A stretch of DNA of 64,000 bases from positions 1,201,585-1,265,584 of the forward strand of contig WELB01000010.1 of the NCBI GenBank assembly GCA_009602725.1. Reading direction: 5' to 3'. Position 1 is the first letter of the stretch. Every line of letters starts with the position of its first letter. Both the position numbers and the translations under genes were made by a program. Shown in pieces: positions 35,701 to 46,383 of this stretch. The DNA comes from Spirogloea muscicola. Taxonomy: Eukaryota. The notes beneath the pieces were generated by a model. It was not told where the DNA came from. It did not search any database and worked only from the letters and a program-made list of their open reading frames with translations.

Positions 35701-37252
35701 GTCTGTAAGCAAGCGCAACCTCTGCAGCATTTCCTCCTCCATCACATCCTCCTTGGGCCCTGCGCACCGTGCGGCTGGTCATTTCGGAAGAACAATGCAC
35801 TCAACGAGGAGTATGTACGGGCATTGAAAGAATGTACAGGCTTGGTGAGCACTCAGGAGGAGCAGAACATCAAGTGAAACTGGATTTGTATTTGGAATCA
35901 ACAAACATGAATGGCATCAAAAAGCATCACAAAGCAGGAGAATGAAGCAAGGGTTAGTGCAAAGATTGGAGGCCAGGAACTAGAGTCTATTTGAGGTATG
36001 AAGACTCTAGCTCAGAAAGCAGGCTCGAAAATTTGACTCGACGTAATGCAGGTGCTCAGCTTGCGCAGGTTAAAGCTGCAGCCGAGCACAATTAGCCGCG
36101 CTCACCAGCGAGCAAGACCCGTGAGATAGCAAAGGGCTGTCCAGAGTTGCGCAGCACGAAGAAGACGTGCGACTTCTTGGAGCTGATGGGCGCCACGCCC
36201 ATGCTGTCATGGGCCTCGTCGCCTGACAGTTCGCCCTCCGAGCCCGAGATGCTGGAGACATCGCTGTTGTCCAGCCCTGCTGGCCGCTTTGCCGCAGCAT
36301 GTGAGACGAGCTCCTCAAATTCGTCCTCTGACAGGGGCCGCTTCTGCGCCAGCCGGCGCTTGACCTGCATCAAGTGCAGCAGCGCTAGAAACAACATGAA
36401 GCCAAACCCTTAAAGTGTAACCCTAAACCCTTAAAGCCCTCGTTCAAATTCCATATTTTGAAGTCAACCCTAAACCATCAAAGCCCTGATTCTTTACTGG
36501 CAAATTGCACAAAGTAGAAGGCGAAATCTATCACGCCAAGGCCTAGAGCGTGAAGCATCAAGCCTCTCCCTTACTCATGCTCTCTGGTTTATACTAGTGT
36601 TATTCTGCTTCATCGTAGTACCAACTTCAATCGAGGAACATCGCCAGCTGAAGACCAACTTGTGAAGCTTGTCTTGACACAATTGACACTAGTCGCTGTC
36701 AACAGCGACTAGTGCTTGGTAATGAGGTGATGAGGGGCCTCTCTATCTGTGAGAGTGAGCTGAGCGATCTGCCGCCTTTGACAGGGACAGCCTGACCGAC
36801 CAAACCCCACAGCTTGGGTCCCAGAGGACGTCTCTGGCAATCGGCCAGCGGCACAAGGACTAGCGGGCGCAGTGACACGCCAGAACGACGGCGCGGTGAG
36901 GCAAAGGGCAGCTCACATTGAGGCGGTGCCAGTCAGTGCGGAAGTGCGCGCGCTGCTCCGCAGCGGCGGCGAAGGCTGCCCCGCAGGCGTGGCAGGTCAG
37001 ACGCTGCGCAGACGGCGGGGCCCCCTCGGAGCCGCCGCCACCGACGGCGGCGACGAAGCCTGCGGCGAGAACGGCCTCGGGCGGCGGCGCCGGAGGAGGC
37101 ACCGCCGCTTCCGCTCCCGGCGGCGCTGCAGGCGGCGATGGCGATGCCTGCTCGCTCCGCCAGAGCTCCGCGCCTTCAAAGAACCGCGCCGGGAGGCGGA
37201 AGATGCTGTCTGGGCCCGGCGCCAGCGGCCGCGCCGGCGGCGCGGCCGCCAT
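32729..37252 (-). CDS. ANKZF1: ANKZF1/Vms1 (C2H2 zinc finger, VLRF1 domain, ankyrin, coiled-coil, C-terminal CCCC zinc finger)
   Basis: CHACG...QRAHFRTDWHRLNVKR, SSISGSE, GGHFAAVV, HQTFHR|YVVRAKAGGRQSAKD...SAGSSLRRYNEAAL, VPFTVRRPTLKEAKR, LEEGADPT...WDWHAADIPSPL, CDCC...PFHRLHYKYCSTTCVRVH. Confidence 0.94.
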
Positions 37253-38056
37253 AGCCGGCCACCGGGGCAGCGCTTGGCGGCGGTGCCGGCGGCGGCGGCG
37301 GCGGCGGCGGCGGCAGCGGCACTCGCAAGCTAACGTGAAGCTAGCTGACTTGTCGGGGGCTGGTTTTAGCAACAACTTAGCGGCACAACTTAGGGGTCGG
37401 GGCCAGAGCGGCAGCCCTCCCTCCCAGGCGGCCACGTGGGCTCCCCCAGGACAGGCGGGGGGTGGGGCGCCTTCCTGGCCGCAAGACTGGGCGTTACTCA
37501 AAATGGCCGCTAGGGCCTCGCGGTCTGACCCGTCGATGCCGGCAGGCATCGGACGGCAAGGAAGCACGTGTGAGAAGGTGGGGGGGGGGCCCTTACTGGC
37601 CGCTCGTTGATCACCATCGACGGGTGCTATGTCGTTGGGATTTCCGTCGTCGATACAGCGCATCGAACGGCGAGGAAGGGGGTTGCGGGCGGGTGGGGTG
37701 CGCTTTTTCCAGCCGCTTCCTTGGACGGGAGGGGGTGTGCGCCGCCGCCACGCGGCGCTCGCGGGGCCGCGGGCGACGAGCGGGCCTTGCGACCCGCCGC
37801 CGTGCGACGCGGTGCGACGCCGCGTGACGGCTCCGCCCGCCGACGACTCGCTCGCTAGCTTCCCGGCCAGGCTTTCCCGCCTGCCCCCCGCCTGCCCTCG
37901 CGATTTAAATCGACCGCTTGTGCTCGGCAGCTTTGCGCGGCCCGCATTCGACGACCGATTTGCCACAAGAAACCCTCCCCCCTCCACGACTTTGCGGCGC
38001 AACCCCTGCGACCGCCCCCCCATTCCTCCCCCACCCCCGCTTCATACCCTAGCCCG

Positions 38057-38087
<31 letters not shown>

Positions 38088-38754
38088 CGCTCTGCCCTCA
38101 CCGCCGGCCCGCACCGCGTCTCCTGCCTCGCACCCTTCGTTGTAGCCGCAGCGCACGCTGAGGAACCAACCCCCGCGTGCCAAAGTGAGTCATACAACCC
38201 ACTGCTCTGCCGGCTGTTCGGCGTCTGTGTGCTTCTGATACACGGCAGTCGAGGACTGTCTGAGAGTGGGTTGATTCGCCGCTTCGCTCCGGCAGTCTTT
38301 GACTCCATGTGCACACCTTTGTCGCTGTGCGCTGCTATTGCGCACAGCGCTTATCAAGTTGCTGTGCTGCTAGGTGACAGGAGCAGGTCATTGCTGAGCA
38401 ATAACCTGCTCACAGTCTAAGTTGCAGGATAGTTGTCATAAGTACTATAATCAGCAAGCGCTGAGCTTTTCCTTTAGGACGTCGTGGTCACTCTTTAGCC
38501 TTTGCAACTGCGTCAGATTGTCAAAATTGTTTGCAGTACCTACTTTGGCCTTGTCATGAGCCCCTCAGCTTGAGCAGTTGCGCGTCTTGGATGTGCATCT
38601 TGTGACCTCTCCTTGTCATGCACCATTGATATTGTCAAACATGCATGAGTCCTTGTGGTTTGACCGTCACTGTCGCAGGTCAATATGTATAAGTGGACTT
38701 GTCATGCTCTCTGACTATCTTGCCCGTTTGATACTCTTTGACAACAGGAACTGA

Positions 38755-38763
38755 ATGACCTAA
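38755..38763 (+). promoter_or_regulatory. 'Tiny' uORF (ATG ACC TAA) of the SAMDC leader, overlapping the small uORF start by 1 nt (TAATG)
   Basis: gaATGACCTAATGGAG: the last A of TAA is the A of the small uORF ATG, matching the known plant AdoMetDC tiny/small uORF arrangement. A leader-intron acceptor (acaacag) ends at 38747. Confidence 0.9.
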
Positions 38764-39313
38764 TGGAGTCAGTTTCAAGCGAAAAGGACTCTAGTAGCAG
38801 TAGTTCCATGCAGTACGAGCTGCCTCTTGGGTATGTCATTGAGGACGTACGCCCTGACGGAGGAGTAGACATCTTCCGTTCGGCTGCTTACAGCAACGTA
38901 AGCTGTCCTCACACTGCTGTGCATGTATGCTATTTGAGTAGGCTGATAGATCCATTAGCTGCTACATAAGCAATTGTAAGAGATAGTTGAGAAGCATGAG
39001 ATGCAGCTGTTATGGTTGAGAAGCATGAGATGCAGCTGTTGTAGGCGTCTCACCTAGGAGTGGTCATGTACTTTAGTATCTGATGTTCTTGCATGATACT
39101 CTTGCTCATGGAGTCAGTTTTAAGACTTGCCACTGTTGCAAGTTGACAAGCTGTTGTGCTGGTGGTAAATCTGTTTTGGGCGTGGGTGGTCATGGCGCAT
39201 GATGCTTTGTCTGCACAATCATAGTCAGGAGAAGCTGAGTGACAGAGCCTTATACATGTTCTTGCTAACAACGTGTCTTCATTCACTTGCAGTGCGTCCG
39301 CAAGCCATCCTGA
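38763..39313 (+). CDS. Conserved SAMDC 'small' uORF peptide (51 aa, 2 exons)
   Basis: MESVSSEKDSSSSSSMQYELPLGYVIEDVRPDGGVDIFRSAAYSN|CVRKPS*. Intron 38898-39292 (GT-AG). Matches the plant AdoMetDC leader peptide (YEAPLGYxIEDVRPxGG...AYSNC.RKPS). Confidence 0.95.
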
Positions 39314-39413
39314 TATCCAGCTAGTGGTGTAAAACTTCTTGCTCACGTGCCGAGGGCATACCTAGGCGCCCCCCCTCCCACACCTGTGGGGTCCTCCATT
39401 TGCTGCCTCAGAT

Positions 39414-42400
39414 ATGGGGATCCTATCACAGCAGGACGTGGAGGGGGGCGCTGCTCATGCGCCATGCTCGCTACCCTGCTTCGGCTTTGAGGGCTTTGAG
39501 AAGCGGTTGGAAGTGGAGTTTTCTCCTGCGCCCTTCTTGAGCAACAACAATAAGGCCGGCCTGCGGGCGCTGTCTCGCGCAGCCATTGATGGCTTCCTCG
39601 CGGCTGCTGAGTGCACCATCGTCTCGCAGCTTTCCAACGATCTCATGGACTCGTATGTCCTTTCTGAGTCCAGCCTCTTCATCTACCCTCACCGGGTCAT
39701 TGTCAAGACCTGCGGCACCACACGGCTTCTGCAGAGCATCCCATTGCTGCTGGAGAGTGCAGCGGACTTGGGCATGGCGGCCATGCGATGCAAGTATACG
39801 CGCGGCTCCTTCCATTTTCCCGAGGCGCAGCCATATGGTGGCAATTTTGCAGAGGAGGTGAAGGTCCTGGAGGAGCATTTTGGCCACTTGGGGTCCGGTG
39901 GTCAATCATATGTGCTGGGGAACACACTTCAGTTTCCCAATTGGCATGTGTATGAGGTCAGTGCTGAGCAGGCGGCAGGCTGCAAGCCCCTGTACACCTT
40001 GGAGATTTGCATGACCAAGCTGGACCGCAAAGTGGCCAGCCAATTCTACCAGGGTGCAGGCTATGACTCCCCGGCGGCACTCACCAAGGCCTCGGGGATT
40101 AGGGACCTGCTCCCACTATCGGACATCAACGACTACTGCTTCGAGCCCTGCGGTTACTCCATGAATTCGATCGAGCAGGCGTCTCACTCAACCATCCACA
40201 TCACGCCCGAAGAAGCATTCAGCTATGCTAGCTTCGAGACCCAGGGGTACGATGCGGAGAATGTGCAGCTGGGGAAACTTGTCAAGCAGGTGGCTGAAAC
40301 TTTCAAGCCGGACTGCTTCTCGGTGGCCTTGCATGCTGCTGGCCTTTCCAGTACCACAGTCAAGGGTGCCTCCTGGGCCAAAGCTGTTCCTGTTCCTGAG
40401 CCCTATGTGTGTGATGGGACTAGCCGGCAAGATTTACCTTGTGGAAGTGCCGTGGTCTTTCACAACTTCAAGCTGCGCAAGTTAGTGGAAGCAGGGCAAG
40501 AGTGTGTGCCACTGTCTTTGGCCCTCCCAGAGCCACTGTCTTTGAAGTCATTGCCACAGCCTACTGAGCCGTTCGGTAAGTCTATGAAATATGGCTGTGT
40601 TGTGCGAACGTTTGTATATGAAATCGAGGCCATAGTTGTTGCTGATTCTTTCTGGCTTTGTGCTTTACTTGTTTCTCCTACTTGTTACTTTGAGCAATTT
40701 GTTATCCTATTACCCTTCTATTTAGCTATACGCAATCCCGTCAGCCTCAATAGTTCTTTCTGTGTATAAGCAGTAGGCAGTCTATTCTCATGTGACAGTT
40801 GGTCGTGCGCTCTTCTCTTCTTTATGTGGCTTAGCTTGGCATGCCACCTTTTGATTTCTAATTGGGCCACACTTACTTCGTCACTCATGTCTTGTTGCCT
40901 TTGCAGGTAAAGCCAGGTTTGATGCGATTGGCTCAACCTTGACTGACATGGACTCGTACGTACGAGCCGTCGTGAAATCAACCAATTCCGAGGATGCATT
41001 CTACGTGCTGGACATTGGCCTGCTGGTCCGCCTGTACCACCAGTGGCAGGAGGCTCTACCGCGCGTGCAGCCCTTCTACGCAGTCAAGTGCAACCAGGAC
41101 GCAACACTCCTTGCCGTCCTAGCATCGCTGGGTTCCGGGTTTGATGTTGCCAGCAAGGCAGAGATGGCAGCTGTGATGGCTATGGGTGTGCAGCAGGGCA
41201 ACATCATCTACGCCAATCCCTGCAAGCTCCCCTCCCACATTGAGGAGGCTCAGGATAGGGGCATACGCCTGACAACATTTGACAGTGAGGACGAGCTCTA
41301 CAAGCTGAAGAAGATCTACCCCGAAGCCCATGTAGTGCTGCGCCTGCGGGCCGACGACCTGAATGCACGCTGTCCCCTGGGGACGAAGTACGGGGCAAAC
41401 ATGGATGAATGTCAGGGGCTCCTTGCCGTGGCAGCCTCTCTGGGCCTGCATGTTGCTGGGGTCGCCTTCCACGTCGGCTCGGGAGCATCTGATGGTCGCT
41501 CGTATTTTGATGCCATTGCTGCTACCAAGGACATCTTTGATATGGCTGAAAGCATGGGCCTTCCCAAGATGACCATTCTGGATATTGGCGGAGGCTTTAC
41601 CTCAGCTGGCGGCCACGGAGCAAGCTTTGAGAATGCCGCTGCTGCTATAAATGAAGCACTTGAGAAGTTCTTCCCTGAAGATACGGGAGTGAAGGTGAGC
41701 AAGTCAGCAGTTTTTGCAGTCAGAATCTTTGGTCTACGTGTTTGAATGTATCATGGTATGTGGTTTGCTTATTTAGCACTAAACCTGCTGTTTGTTGACA
41801 AATCACATTCTCTGGCCTTTGCAGGTGATTGCAGAGCCAGGCCGTTACTTCGCTGAGGCACCAATTACTCTGGCAGCACAAGTTTTTGGCCGCCGCATGC
41901 GGGGCAGGTCCCATGCTCGCTCCGCCGAGTACTGGATCAACGACGGGATCTATGGGTCCATGAACTGCTTGCTCTACGACCATGCTGAGTTGACAGTCAG
42001 GCCCCTGCAGTGTGCTGCCGTGCTCTCGGCTGCACCTGCACCACCCATCAAGTCCACCATATTCGGGCCAACCTGCGACGGCCTTGATACGGTGTTGCGG
42101 GATGTGTGGTTGCCGCAGCTTGAGTGCGGTGACTGGCTTGTGTTCCCTCGTATGGGCGCATACACAAAGGCCGCAGGATCAAGCTTCAACGGTTTCAACA
42201 CAGCCGATATTCGCACCATGTACGTCTACTCGGAGGAGCAGGGCAGTGATGATGAGGCAGCAGAAACGTGCGAGTCAGATAGCGAGGGGACAACAGATGA
42301 TGATGATGACTGTCGCGCAGGACTGAGTGATGATGCGAACCCATCAGATTCATCGCATGCAGTGGGGCTATCTGCGTACCATGCTGGCAGCAGCAGCGAG

Positions 42401-42430
42401 GAGGATGACGATGCATATGACCTGCCTTAG
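39414..42430 (+). CDS. SAMDC-ODC: Predicted bifunctional S-adenosylmethionine decarboxylase - ornithine decarboxylase fusion (~851 aa; exons 39414-40575, 40907-41694, 41825-42430)
   Basis: AdoMetDC motifs: [19 protein letters not shown] (cleavage site), [34 protein letters not shown] motifs: [60 protein letters not shown]. Phase-1 intron ttcg|GTAAGT...ttgcAG|gtaaa joins the two in frame ([20 protein letters not shown]). Domain identities are near certain; the fusion is predicted from splice signals. Confidence 0.88.
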
Positions 42431-43160
42431 CTTAGTCCAGGCATAGGCTCCTCGTGCACCTGGCCTGCTCGGTGCTCCTTAGGAGCCAGTCCTTCTAGCC
42501 TAATTACATGTGTGGCTTTCAAATATTGGTGCTGGCTCCCTTGCCCTTTTGGGAGGGATGCTGCACATTTGCATCTGAATGATTACGGAAATCTGCTCAT
42601 CTTTGCTACATTGCCAGTGCTTGAACACATTTCAATGATGCAATGCATTTTGGCATTGTAGTGCTGGGCTTTGACACCCCCCATCTTATTCGTGGAGTCC
42701 TGCAAGAATCTCCTTGTGCTGGTCTTAATTCATGTTCTGAAGATGACTATCCTTATTTGTAAGCTTGCAAGTAGATGGATGTAGTAGTGTGGTTAGTTCT
42801 CATCGGCTATGAGCACCTACATCACGTACACTGCTTGTGCAGCATAGTAATCAGTTGCGTATATCAGTCCACTGTCAAGAGCATCCTTTCAATGTTGACC
42901 ATGGAACATTGTAAAGCCATACAGGCTAGAGAAGCGTCCTTTGGCTCCTTGGCTGTACAGGAAGTTCTCATTGAGTTGCTAGAAGGGAATAAATGGAATG
43001 AATCACTTTGAGAAAGAATAATGAATGGTAAGTGCAGGCACAATGAAACAACACTCAGCATTTACGCAGCTTTCTTTTAAGCTGGTGCTTGAGCTGTAAG
43101 AGGGCAAGGGAGCAGATGAGGGCAAGGTCCATGAGCATGTGGCAGTATTCAGCTGGCGAC

Positions 43161-46100
43161 TCAAAACATGTCGGCTAGGAGGTCATTGACTGTGGTCATG
43201 GGGCCGTCATCCTGCGAGCATGCAACCCATGTCAGGGTTGAGCACATTGGCGAGCTGTGCAGCTCGAGCCCTTCCTCAAACCCTCGGTGCCAGTGCCTTC
43301 TAGAGCAGCGCATGAGAGCTAAGTGAAGCACATGGACTTGTTGTACATTCAGGACAGGTTTCGGCCATCTGAAATGCAGCTGCAGAGAGCTTGCTGGTGC
43401 CAGCACACGAGCAAGATAGAGAAAGAAAAGGCACGCCTGAGCTGGGGCATTGCCAATGACGTGTACAATACCAGGATGACGATGTCAAAGGAGGCCACAT
43501 AGGTGTCGAACCACTTGTTGACATTGTCATTCCTGCATTGAAGGAGACATTGTGGCCCCTGCTTGAGTTCACAGCCGCAGTGCTGGCAGAGAAATGAAAG
43601 CGCTGGCAACATTATAAGCAAATATTTGAGCAAATTCTTGTTAAGCTGCTATTTCGATGCCTGGCACCGTACAAATTCTGCAACTCTCTGGCTACATATG
43701 TCCTGCCAGAACTCTAGCTAACCTTGTAGCCAGAACATGCGCTTGAAGATTGACATGCTTGATGGCAGGAGAGTGTAGGGGCGTGAAGAATGTCCTTACA
43801 GGAAGCCAACTGTGATGCGATTCTCGTATGGCACGCCATTGGACATGCCCAGGTCGCCGAGGTGGTCCCCAAGGAGCAGGACATTGGTCCGCCCCTTGAC
43901 AATGGCAGTGCCGGTGTCATCAATGTGGGTCCCCGTGCCATCAGCACAGCAGTCTGCTTCCTCGCCAGGGAGTGGCGCTGCCAGCTCAAGCGCGTGCTCG
44001 TTCTTGTTGAGCACGTGAATGATCCGCCCTGCAAGTCAACAAGCCTCATCCTTAACATCAGGTATCATCTCTCAGGGCTTGGATACAATATTTACAAGAC
44101 TCAAAAGCTACGGCTTGTCATCTGTTATCACTTCTAGTGTATGCAAGAATTGAATGCACCAAGACTTCATCACTGCTCCTTGACCAGTCCTGTCAAGCTT
44201 GTCAAAAGGCAACCTCCCTGTGGACATTATTGAGCGGCTGAGATGCAGCAGCTTGCATCAAGGTCGGCTGCCGCTTCTTACGGACCTCTGAAGGTGGTCA
44301 AGTTGCCAGCATCATCAAAAACCATGCGGTTTGAGACTACGCGGATGTTGGGAAATGTGCGGTGCAACTTCTGCCGCACTACCTGCGACGCCTCGTTTTA
44401 TGTACACTTTGAGGAAATAATCTAGAGCAGCATGCCCAGGCAGGCAGAGCAGACACTTTGGCACGATTTGCACGCCAGTGCTGCTGGCAGCTGTGCAGAT
44501 TAGTCCAGGAAGGAGCTGCATAGAATTTGCCGCTCAGCATGAAGACTGAAGCCCTTGATCTGAAACCCACATCCCTAATCCCAAAGAGGCTGCAGCCTGA
44601 AGCGCACCTCTTCGATGACGTCGGCGAGCCCAGCTGAGAAAATAAGCAGCGGCACATCCCATGCCTGAAGCAGCCGCAGATTTGGGGTTTGAGAGTAGCA
44701 AATACAGTCAGGAGCAAATGAGTGCTGAACGCGTGACTGCTGGCGACCCTAAGCTCCACATTCAAGTGGCTACGGTGGTAGTAGGTGTGAACGTTGATAG
44801 ACACACAGAACTGCTTAAGTGCTTGACAGACTTGACTAATCAAAGACTAATCAAAACAGCATAAGTCAGCTTGCAAGGATTAAAGCTCCATTGAGCAGTG
44901 GTCAAAGTAGTCAGTACCGCAAGGGCTTCAAAGAGGGCAACACAGTCGTCCCTGAACGCGATATTGCCGCCGGCCACGGAGCGCGCAATGGCCGCCCGTG
45001 TCAGGCCGCCCTCGAGCAGCACTGCGTGGCAGGCCGACCACCTACAGCCTCCGAAGGCCAGGTGCAGATTGGAAACGTGAGCACAAGAAACTCAAAGCTA
45101 ATCTCAGATCCTAACTCACTCTCTTGACTCCAAACCTGCCCTAATCCCTGACTTGTGTACTTGCCCTACAATCTCTGATTCTTGTACTTGCTGGTCTAGA
45201 ATGGTCAATTAGAGTGGGGCTGCTCTGACAGAATCAATAGATTGGTCACAGATTCTGAGTGGTCGTACTGCTTAGCTACTCTGCGATCAGGGCTTGCTGG
45301 TGGAAGGGTGCAGAGCTCACCACTCGTCCATGAGCCGGAACTTCTCGGCAAACGGGATGGCGGGGTCGACCTCCATGGGGTAGTACTTCTCGTTCAGCTC
45401 GCGCCGCCGGTCGTTGTAGCGCGCATCGCCCTGGTCGACCAGGGCATGGCTGCCTGGCAAGACAGCGGCGATGCGCCCGCGGCTGAACTCAGATGCTGTA
45501 GCGCGCACTCAAGCTAGACACTAGTCACCATAAGACAATGACATTCACAAGACACAGCCACTTGGACACAATTGAACACAGATCTAGCTATCGTTACTTC
45601 AGTTGAGGGTCCGGAGCCAGTCCCCAACCAGCTACTTGGGCTGCCTGAGAAGGAGAGATATGGTCGGGCAAGACTCACTCTGGCCTCGCCGGCCGCCGAC
45701 CATGAACTTGGTCAGCGTCATGTCGAAGTCGGCAATCACCTGGCAAGGGCGGCTCGCGGTGGGCCTCAGTGGGTGCTCAGTGGGCAACGGCCGCTCCAGT
45801 CCAGCAGCACCTCGGCATGAGTGGTGGACCAGCCAGATGCTGCCTTCGCTCGTCCAGCGCCCCCAACGATTAGGGTTCATGGTTTAGATTAAGGATCTAG
45901 AAGGTTTAGGTCGTAGGGTTTAGGGCCAAGATTTAAGTGTCTAGGTTTCAGGATTTAGGATTAGGGGTTGACATCTAGGGTTTTGGGTTCGCGGCGAAGT
46001 GAAATCTGTGCCGGGTTGTGACGCCTGAGCCATGATGCAGGACCCCTCGATCGCATGCCCGGTGACCCCGACCCATGTTGACCCAGACCCGCCTGCAGCT

Positions 46101-46268
46101 TGGCGGCGCCGGCGCGCCGGAAGGCAGCCTTCTTGCGCTCCAGCGCCGCGGGGTCGCCGACGACCACGCCGCCGGGCAGCCGCGGCGGCGCCACCGACGC
46201 CGCCGCCNNNNGGCGGCGGCGGCGGCGCGCGCGAGGCGCGACGGCGGGGGCGGGGGCGGCATCGCCAT
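43161..46268 (-). CDS. NT5C3: Cytosolic pyrimidine 5'-nucleotidase III family (HAD)
   Basis: AGAAKLQ|VIADFDMTLTKF, SHALV, YYPMEVDP...EKFRLMDEW, PLLIFSAGLADVIEE, RVVSNRMVFD, IHVLNKNEHAL, NVLLLGDHLGDLGMS, VGFL, FDIVILDDGPM. The start is approximate because of 4 Ns at 46208-46211. Confidence 0.92.
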
Positions 46269-46383
46269 GGATCCCCGGCCGGTCACGGCGAGCGCTGACA
46301 GCGGTGGCTGCCGTTTGTGCCCGCCGTTAAATGGCGTCGCTGCCATTCCACTCCTTCCTCCGCTTCTCGGCCACATTCTTCTC

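What the first reader, a model, noticed from the sequence alone, without database searches (positions are those of the whole stretch)
39414..42430. AdoMetDC-ODC gene fusion: both key polyamine decarboxylases on one predicted polypeptide
Seen in sequence: a complete plant-type AdoMetDC domain ends at a strong donor (G|GTAAGT, 40576). A pyrimidine-rich acceptor (ttgcAG, 40906) resumes in frame into a full ornithine decarboxylase. There is no stop between them and only 331 bp separates them. Both active sites look intact: the SE|SS pyruvoyl cleavage site at residues 85/86, the PLP lysine in YAVKCN and the Cys in GPTCDG. Established knowledge: an AdoMetDC/ODC bifunctional enzyme with the same domain order is known from Plasmodium, while plant SAMDC and ODC are normally separate genes and Arabidopsis lacks ODC. 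Inference: this is an independent, convergent fusion in a green-plant lineage that couples putrescine and decarboxylated-SAM supply for spermidine synthesis. After self-cleavage it would give an 85-aa beta chain plus an alpha-ODC chain. I do not recall it being described in streptophytes, but that needs checking.
Basis: partly seen in the sequence, partly recalled or inferred. Interest (0 to 1): 0.93.

Follow-up and report, generated by a model that had tools for sequence, protein, structure and literature searches.

The report
Ancient two-in-one polyamine enzyme of plants
This green-alga gene is spliced into one message encoding a single protein predicted to carry both key polyamine-making decarboxylases, and because database proteins from many green algae, liverworts, a spikemoss and ferns have the same fusion, it is likely the ancestral green-plant form, from which the separate seed-plant enzymes likely split.

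Summary
The fusion is real. Contigs of one public run splice 40575/40907 with no intron cover. The joined 851-aa protein equals a database gene model of Spirogloea muscicola, and all 24 active-site positions checked are intact.

It is not a one-off fusion. 118 of 120 listed long homologues carry both domains, including chlorophytes, Mesostigma, Chlorokybus, Klebsormidium, Coleochaete, liverworts, Selaginella and ferns. Trees nest standalone plant SAMDCs and ODCs among fused ones. Two liverwort SAMDCs keep ODC remnants. The fusion is therefore likely ancestral to green plants and was split repeatedly.

The architecture is known from Plasmodium and, from recall, Micromonas. Nine completed paper searches found no description in streptophytes, but key papers were not held. 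The same order occurs in Cyanophora and Diphylleia, so convergence with Plasmodium is unproven. The scan earlier noted a related fusion with a dead ODC in another genome. Activities are untested.

The parts
38755..38763 (+). tiny uORF (Met-Thr-stop); the last A of its stop codon is the A of the small uORF's ATG (1-nt overlap)
   Evidence: sequence; layout as described for land-plant AdoMetDC mRNAs in PMC2811004 (passages)
38763..39313 (+). small uORF, 51 aa, in two exons (38763-38897, 39293-39313), ending ...RKPS-stop with a penultimate proline
   Evidence: Pfam AdoMetDC_leader PF08132 E 1.4e-20 on the first exon; translation; junction seen in run X1
38898..39292 (+). intron inside the small uORF (395 nt, GT..AG)
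   Evidence: joint 38897/39293 at depth 213, 2 contigs, 25 nt on the short side
39414..40575 (+). coding exon 1: plant-type AdoMetDC domain (aa 24-353) and start of the linker; E85|S86 pyruvoyl site at 39666-39671, C100, S249, H262, E266
40576..40906 (+). 331-nt phase-1 intron in the inter-domain linker; its removal makes the fusion
40907..41694 (+). coding exon 2: ODC barrel domain; PLP lysine K448 at 41086-41088, D467, R535, H576
41695..41824 (+). 130-nt intron in the ODC part
41825..42430 (+). coding exon 3: rest of ODC (E654, R657, Y701-D702, C734-D735, Y763) and a 62-aa acidic tail (52% D/E/S) predicted to be disordered; stop TAG 42428-42430
38185..38747 (+). possible first leader intron (GTGAGT ... 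TTTGACAACAG); predicted only, no read support
   Evidence: sequence motifs only; no cover upstream of about 38755

Best explanation
One spliced gene encodes an 851-aa protein with an AdoMetDC domain followed by an ODC domain, predicted to be a bifunctional enzyme, and the fusion is likely inherited from the common ancestor of green plants rather than new in this alga.

Shown: the splice, the single frame, intact active-site residues, the uORF pair, the spread of the fusion and the nesting of standalone plant enzymes among fused ones.

Inferred from the two enzyme families: the proenzyme would cut itself at E85|S86 into a 9.0-kDa beta chain and an 82.7-kDa pyruvoyl-alpha/ODC chain. ODC domains would pair head to tail, giving a complex of about 183 kDa with two ODC and two AdoMetDC sites. 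The reactions are parallel, not consecutive, so the gain would be matched supply of putrescine and decarboxylated SAM, not channelling. The tiny/small uORF pair would shut down both activities when polyamines are high, whereas in seed plants it controls SAMDC alone. The acidic tail may set turnover.

Inferred history: standalone plant SAMDCs arose several times by loss of the ODC part. The standalone ODC of seed plants and Sphagnum likely descends from an early streptophyte duplicate that lost its SAMDC part.
For: Splice seen and intron uncovered. Identical database gene model, plus a second fused copy in the same species, 800 of 851 residues identical.

Active sites: 24 of 24 positions intact in P0001; among 118 fused homologues the pyruvoyl Ser is kept in 117, the PLP Lys in 116 and the ODC Cys in 116 (position labels recalled, supported by alignments to potato and human AdoMetDC and T. 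brucei ODC). Both domains fold confidently (mean pLDDT 86), and the ODC part matches solved ODCs at target TM about 0.9.

Spread: 118 of 120 listed long homologues have both domains, and all 185 of 544 stored proteins that hit both halves have SAMDC first (this includes cluster members and fragments).

Trees: green SAMDC domains separate from three non-green fusions at 100/100, and standalone plant SAMDCs are rejected as one clade (AU p 3e-66). Green ODC domains form one clade at 100/100, and fused green ODCs are rejected as a clade without the standalone ones (p 6e-6).

Relics: a Calypogeia standalone SAMDC ends in a match to the last 65 residues of the Marchantia fusion (47% identity, pairwise E 2e-6). 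A Marchantia paleacea SAMDC carries a decayed ODC piece (E 1e-7; profile hit 1e-8).
Against: No enzyme assay, no protein evidence and no full-length transcript; one run only.

Tree rows were hand-picked from top hits. Standalone SAMDCs of chlorophytes, red algae, animals and fungi were not in the SAMDC trees.

The fusion is not universal in green algae: PMC6356823 Table 2 gives separate ODC and SAMDC accessions for Chlamydomonas and Bathycoccus, and Myrmecia has a standalone ODC beside its fusion. Chara and mosses appeared only as standalone SAMDCs, which needs extra losses.

The branch placing seed-plant ODC inside streptophytes has moderate support at several nodes (94/82, 92/71, 95/61). pTM 0.62 does not show a fixed arrangement of the two domains.
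Confidence: 0.85

Rival explanations
1. The fusion is older than green plants: one ancient eukaryotic fusion, of which the Plasmodium enzyme, the glaucophyte, CRuMs and green-plant proteins are all descendants, with repeated fission elsewhere. This extends the best explanation rather than excluding it.
For: The same order occurs in Cyanophora paradoxa and Diphylleia rotans records and in unnamed divergent proteins; 29 of 38 hand-picked long representatives carry both domains. In the ODC tree, all fused rows but one fall in a group at 93/87 apart from animal-type rows, and one clade for all of them is not rejected (AU p 0.37).
Against: Support is below the tool's threshold, and 'not rejected' shows no clade. 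Two unnamed standalone ODCs sit inside the group, and the outgroup is 8 rows, 5 of them unnamed. No Plasmodium, ciliate, red-algal or trypanosomatid row was included. The Diphylleia record is a single transcriptome sequence of a predator and could be prey-derived.
Confidence: 0.3
2. One reading: an independent, convergent fusion that arose within one green-plant lineage, or separately in several.
For: Linkers differ in length and sequence: 67 aa here against a median of 114.5 between the same columns in 118 fusions. Fusion of two co-regulated enzymes has happened more than once: pyruvoyl SpeD-SpeDC fusions in bacteria (PMC10407285, passages) and an actinobacterial cluster with AdoMet_dc and Orn_Arg_deC (Atlas lead, score 0.83).
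Against: It would need ten or more same-order fusions across chlorophytes, Mesostigma, Chlorokybus, Klebsormidium, Coleochaete, Zygnematophyceae, liverworts, Selaginella and ferns. Standalone liverwort SAMDCs keep ODC relics, which points to fission.
Confidence: 0.06
3. The gene is fused, but only one half works, or a SAMDC-only isoform (intron kept, stop at 40769) is the main product.
For: Degenerate ODC halves exist among relatives: Mesostigma lacks the equivalents of C734 and D467, and Cyanophora and Diphylleia differ at D467 and R535. The earlier scan finding e1-7155233 describes a dead-ODC fusion. Contigs drop rare variants.
Against: Every checked residue is intact here. No contig covers the intron. 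The ODC branch of this protein is not long (0.3).
Confidence: 0.07
4. Two neighbouring genes or a mis-assembly, joined only on paper.
For: An in-frame ATG exists at 40948, and an older Selaginella annotation split the same locus into two adjacent models.
Against: Spliced contigs cross the junction, there is no N in the locus, a second copy has the same layout, and transcript-derived full-length fusions exist in Coleochaete, Netrium and Psilotum.
Confidence: 0.02

Closest known systems
Bifunctional AdoMetDC/ODC of Plasmodium (PMC3253432, section 29 read)
   Same: One ORF, N-terminal AdoMetDC joined by a hinge to C-terminal ODC; parallel reactions; proposed role in balancing putrescine and decarboxylated SAM.
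   Different: About 92 kDa per chain against about 170 kDa; short linker; plant-type AdoMetDC under plant uORF control. Cross-domain regulation is untested here, and common descent is untested.
AdoMetDC-ODC fusion of the green alga Micromonas (Green et al. 2011 Mol Microbiol 81:1109, abstract recalled, paper not held; PMC6356823 Table 2 lists XP_003057072.1 as both ODC and SAMDC of M. pusilla)
   Same: Same architecture in a green alga; very likely the same ancestral fusion. A mamiellophyte relative (Dolichomastix, P0063) is among the hits.
   Different: This copy is from a streptophyte alga close to land plants, with the land-plant 1-nt-overlap uORF pair. I did not compare it with the Micromonas accession itself.
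Standalone plant SAMDC with tiny/small uORFs (potato structure 1MHM; PMC2811004 passages)
   Same: Best PDB match of the N-terminal half (E 1e-67); same uORF pair and an intron in the small uORF.
   Different: Here the reading frame continues into a whole ODC. Standalone plant SAMDCs nest among fused ones.
Eukaryotic PLP-dependent ODC (T. brucei, human, seed plants)
   Same: E 5e-104 to T. brucei ODC with all checked active-site residues; target TM about 0.9; Tyr-Asp at 701-702 as in ODCs.
   Different: Carried at the C-terminus of the AdoMetDC alpha chain. Seed-plant and Sphagnum ODCs form a sister group to the fused Klebsormidium-to-fern ODCs.

Membership tests
Bifunctional AdoMetDC/ODC | Both domains in one reading frame of one mRNA, AdoMetDC first | tested here: met
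   no single contig spans the whole mRNA
Bifunctional AdoMetDC/ODC | Both decarboxylase activities in the one protein | not testable with these tools
   residues intact, but no assay
Bifunctional AdoMetDC/ODC | Dimeric complex with cross-domain regulation, as in Plasmodium | not testable with these tools
Bifunctional AdoMetDC/ODC | Common descent with the Plasmodium fusion | tested here: inconclusive
   non-green fusions group weakly with green ones; no Plasmodium row in any tree
Eukaryotic class 2 AdoMetDC, plant type | PF01536 above cut-off, with Glu-Ser cleavage site and processing/catalytic Cys, Ser, His, Glu | tested here: met
Eukaryotic class 2 AdoMetDC, plant type | Overlapping tiny and small uORFs in the leader, small uORF 48-55 aa with a penultimate proline | tested here: met
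   against PMC2811004
Eukaryotic class 2 AdoMetDC, plant type | Self-cleavage to a pyruvoyl enzyme | not testable with these tools
   inferred from the motif only
Eukaryotic ODC (alanine-racemase fold) | PF02784 and PF00278, with PLP Lys, His, Glu, Arg, Cys-Asp and Tyr of the active site | tested here: met
Eukaryotic ODC (alanine-racemase fold) | Ornithine (not lysine or arginine) preference | tested here: inconclusive
   Tyr701-Asp702 matches T. brucei ODC; added lysine activity cannot be excluded from sequence
Green-plant AdoMetDC-ODC fusion clade | Both halves fall in the green-plant clade among fused homologues | tested here: met

The most novel reading that the evidence does not exclude
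The AdoMetDC-ODC fusion, called unique to malaria parasites in a review, is an ancient eukaryotic gene. It was kept in glaucophytes, some protists, green algae, liverworts, lycophytes and ferns, and is homologous to the Plasmodium enzyme by descent. The textbook separate SAMDC and ODC of seed plants would be fission products, and in the fused state ODC would be governed by the SAMDC uORF switch.
Probability: 0.3. Interest if true: 0.82.

Novelty: new member of a known kind. Interest (0 to 1): 0.56.

Why it matters
If the history holds, the separate SAMDC and ODC genes of crops and Arabidopsis relatives are the derived state, and liverworts, spikemosses and ferns run polyamine synthesis from one bifunctional protein under one translational switch. 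Databases hide this by naming only one half, or by a wrong name.

Marchantia and Ceratopteris make it testable by genetics. A compact 92-kDa version could give the first structure of a whole AdoMetDC/ODC, which the 2011 review says was lacking for Plasmodium because that protein expresses poorly. My PDB sequence search showed no chain covering both halves among the 60 of 66 matches displayed.

The architecture itself is known, so this is a range extension with an evolutionary twist, not a new kind of system.

Tried and rejected
Genome and context: no whole genome is held for this window, so standalone SAMDC or ODC copies in this alga could not be sought.

Runs: no holder is on record as RNA. 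X2 and X3 gave scraps without joints; X4 and X5 laid nothing. Neither is evidence.

Splice alternatives: 6 of the 15 donor/acceptor pairs near the junction are stop-free, but only 40575/40907 appears in contigs.

Literature: nine completed searches (one search failed on a term) found no paper describing the fusion in streptophytes or land plants. Look-ups for Green et al. 2011 and three others (a Michael 2016 review, a ciliate polyamine paper, both by recalled id, Bale and Ealick 2010) were not held, and most subscription papers are outside the library, so absence from print is not shown. No supplements were read; those of PMC2811004 (uORF alignments) may bear on the algal range. Passages of PMC12803844, PMC8503589, PMC6579911 and bioRxiv 10.64898/2026.04.30.721942 had nothing on this fusion.

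Rows set aside: the Leptophrys record was treated as likely prey-derived, because it groups with Closterium at 100. P0427, P0428 and P0430 are tandem ODC-ODC models, not fusions. P0089 (Nyssa) is SAMDC joined to PF00481, not ODC. Matches of the linker profile to seed-plant ODC N-termini were not counted as relics, because the profile overlaps the start of the ODC fold.

Earlier scan notes: look-ups by sequence and by place returned nothing.

Full report
OBSERVATION. Of 15 donor/acceptor pairs near the junction, 40575/40907 is one of 6 that keep the frame open, and a second intron lies at 41695-41824. The three coding exons give 851 aa and one stop, identical to stored protein P0001. That protein is EukProt's Spirogloea muscicola model SM000010S04380, whose 3017-base span equals 39414-42430; the species is a zygnematophyte alga. 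Pfam finds a whole SAM_decarbox domain and both ODC domains above cut-off. A second model in the same species is also fused and shares 800 of 851 residues.

TRANSCRIPT. Of three runs laid on 37900-43000, X1 covers the exons and gives three GT..AG joints, skipping 395, 331 and 130 nt; X2 and X3 gave scraps. On a closer lay, a 194-nt contig with no differences has 80 nt on the SAMDC side and 114 nt on the ODC side. Joint depth is 152, which equals the sum of that contig (83.1) and a variant one (69), and 40579-40888 has no cover; X4 and X5 laid nothing. The tool only guesses that X1 is RNA, but the splicing pattern fits RNA. This is one study, and no contig spans the whole message.

ACTIVE SITES AND FOLD. 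The N-terminal half aligns to potato and human AdoMetDC, with the beta chain ending at residue 85. The C-terminal half aligns to T. brucei and human ODC (E 5e-104). All 24 positions I checked are intact in P0001. Among 118 fused homologues the cleavage Glu-Ser and Cys are kept in 117, the PLP Lys in 116 and the ODC Cys in 116 (residue roles recalled). AlphaFold on a 109-row alignment gives mean pLDDT 86 and pTM 0.62, with low confidence at 1-21, in the linker near 373-386 and in the acidic tail 793-851. Foldseek's top matches are ODCs at target TM about 0.9. Predicted masses are 91.7 kDa whole, and 9.0 plus 82.7 kDa after cleavage.

A tiny uORF (38755-38763) overlaps by one base a 51-aa small uORF that is split by the 395-nt intron and ends in Pro-Ser (PF08132 E 1.4e-20). 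PMC2811004 (passages) describes this pair as the polyamine-responsive repressor of land-plant AdoMetDC translation. On this mRNA it would govern ODC as well (inference).

SPREAD. A search for longer relatives of the SAMDC half gave 150 hits among 7985 scored candidates; 118 of the 120 listed, P0001 included, carry both PF01536 and PF02784. Named ones include Mesotaenium, Netrium, Closterium, Coleochaete, Klebsormidium, Chlorokybus, Mesostigma, Marchantia, Riccia, Calypogeia, Selaginella, Psilotum, Adiantum, Ceratopteris, Trebouxia, Micractinium, Auxenochlorella, Coccomyxa, Tetraselmis, Pyramimonas, Cymbomonas, Nephroselmis and Dolichomastix. No named moss or seed plant is among the fusions listed; these appear as standalone SAMDC or standalone ODC. 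The search of 50% representatives added more: 29 of 38 long proteins that I picked from the 150 listed have both domains. The Atlas holds a 77-member cluster with both domains, mostly Chlorophyta where known.

HISTORY. Rows for trees were hand-picked. In the SAMDC trees (60 rows, quick; 36 rows, careful) the fused chlorophytes and Chlorokybus/Mesostigma branch first, and all 13 standalone plant SAMDCs lie further in, mixed with fused ones. Holding them together is rejected (AU p 3e-66). In the ODC trees (85 rows with 29 of 58 unnamed standalone representatives; 49 rows; 51 rows) green ODCs form one clade (100/100). Seed-plant and Sphagnum ODCs (99/91) are sister to the fused Klebsormidium-to-fern group (96/81), and fused green ODCs alone are rejected as a clade (p 6e-6). 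Relics point to fission: among 113 tails of short SAMDC hits, four match a profile of the fused ODC. Two of these four (P0381, P0044) look like cut-off or badly modelled fusions; the other two are a Marchantia paleacea protein and an unnamed near relative with a decayed ODC piece. A Calypogeia SAMDC keeps the last strand and acidic tail of the Marchantia fusion with the ODC body gone. Against a simple story: Chlamydomonas and Bathycoccus are listed with separate genes, Chara and mosses showed only standalone SAMDC, and no non-green standalone SAMDC was in the trees. For a deeper origin, all fused rows but one group at 93/87 apart from animal-type ODCs, and a single clade is not rejected (p 0.37), which neither shows nor excludes it.

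MECHANISM. Shown: gene structure, splice, residues and uORFs. Inferred from the families: self-cleavage to a pyruvoyl enzyme; ODC-driven dimerisation into a complex of about 183 kDa; two independent active sites that supply spermidine synthase with putrescine and decarboxylated SAM in fixed ratio; joint translational repression by polyamines. The Plasmodium review (PMC3253432, section 29 read) argues against channelling and for balanced supply with cross-domain effects; whether these hold here is untested. I put 0.85 on an active bifunctional enzyme of ancestral green-plant origin.

KNOWN OR NEW. The architecture is known from Plasmodium. I recall that Green et al. 2011 reported it in Micromonas; that paper was not held (only its reference entry was seen). 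PMC6356823 Table 2 does give one accession as both ODC and SAMDC of M. pusilla. Gene models for Marchantia, Selaginella, ferns and this alga are already fused in databases, under one-activity or wrong names. Nine completed searches found no account of the fusion in streptophytes or of the fissions, but the library lacks most subscription papers. PMC10407285, PMC8503589, PMC12803844, PMC6579911 and one bioRxiv preprint were seen as passages only. One earlier scan note (e1-7155233) reports a related fusion with a dead ODC in another genome.

VERDICT. A real, spliced gene and a new member of a known kind. Interest 0.56; 0.82 if deep homology with Plasmodium holds (probability 0.3).

Noticed in passing
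window 43799-44035 (-), part of a multi-exon gene at about 43300-46300: Pyrimidine 5'-nucleotidase (UMPH-1, PF05822, E 5e-12) on the minus strand, converging on the fusion gene's 3' end; no functional link is apparent.
   Followed up: partly
window 36860-37330 (-): A divergently oriented gene start with a C2H2-like motif that resembles the ANKZF1/Vms1 zinc finger (recalled); Pfam gave no hit on the 392-aa frame. It would share the upstream region with the fusion gene.
   Followed up: partly
window 39293-42391, run X1: Contigs fall into up to three sequence variants at 90-100% identity, which fits several near-identical gene copies; a second fused model at 94% identity is on record.
   Followed up: partly
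P0053 (Mesostigma), P0431 (Cyanophora), P0435 (Diphylleia), P0105 (Chlorokybus second copy): Fusions with altered halves: the Mesostigma ODC lacks the catalytic Cys and a PLP-binding Asp; Cyanophora and Diphylleia differ at two or three ODC positions; P0105 has a gap at the AdoMetDC cleavage site. These may be regulatory, half-dead fusions.
   Followed up: partly
P0358 (Marchantia paleacea), P0348, P0309 (Calypogeia), P0302, P0305, P0319: Standalone-looking SAMDCs that keep decayed ODC pieces or the fusion's acidic tail, apparently fission caught in progress (only P0309 and P0358 were compared pairwise).
   Followed up: yes
P0046, P0048, P0050 (Trebouxia), P0090 (Cymbomonas): NCBI names these fusions 'Mitochondrial 2-oxoadipate and 2-oxoglutarate transporter', probably a mix-up with the yeast gene symbol ODC1 (recalled).
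   Followed up: no
Selaginella cluster, P0014 and P0124-P0128: The older annotation split the locus into adjacent SAMDC and ODC models (EFJ06769/EFJ06770, EFJ21728/EFJ21729); RefSeq joins them. This may be why the fusion was overlooked.
   Followed up: no
ESM Atlas cluster, rank 2: A 90-member bacterial cluster (mostly Actinomycetota, 506 aa) with AdoMet_dc in 88% and Orn_Arg_deC in 100% of members: possibly a separate bacterial fusion of the same two activities. Lead only (score 0.83).
   Followed up: no
P0172, P0174, P0229 (Sphagnum): Sphagnum has a standalone ODC that groups with seed-plant ODCs, not with the liverwort and fern fused ODCs, suggesting two ODC lineages in early land plants.
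   Followed up: partly
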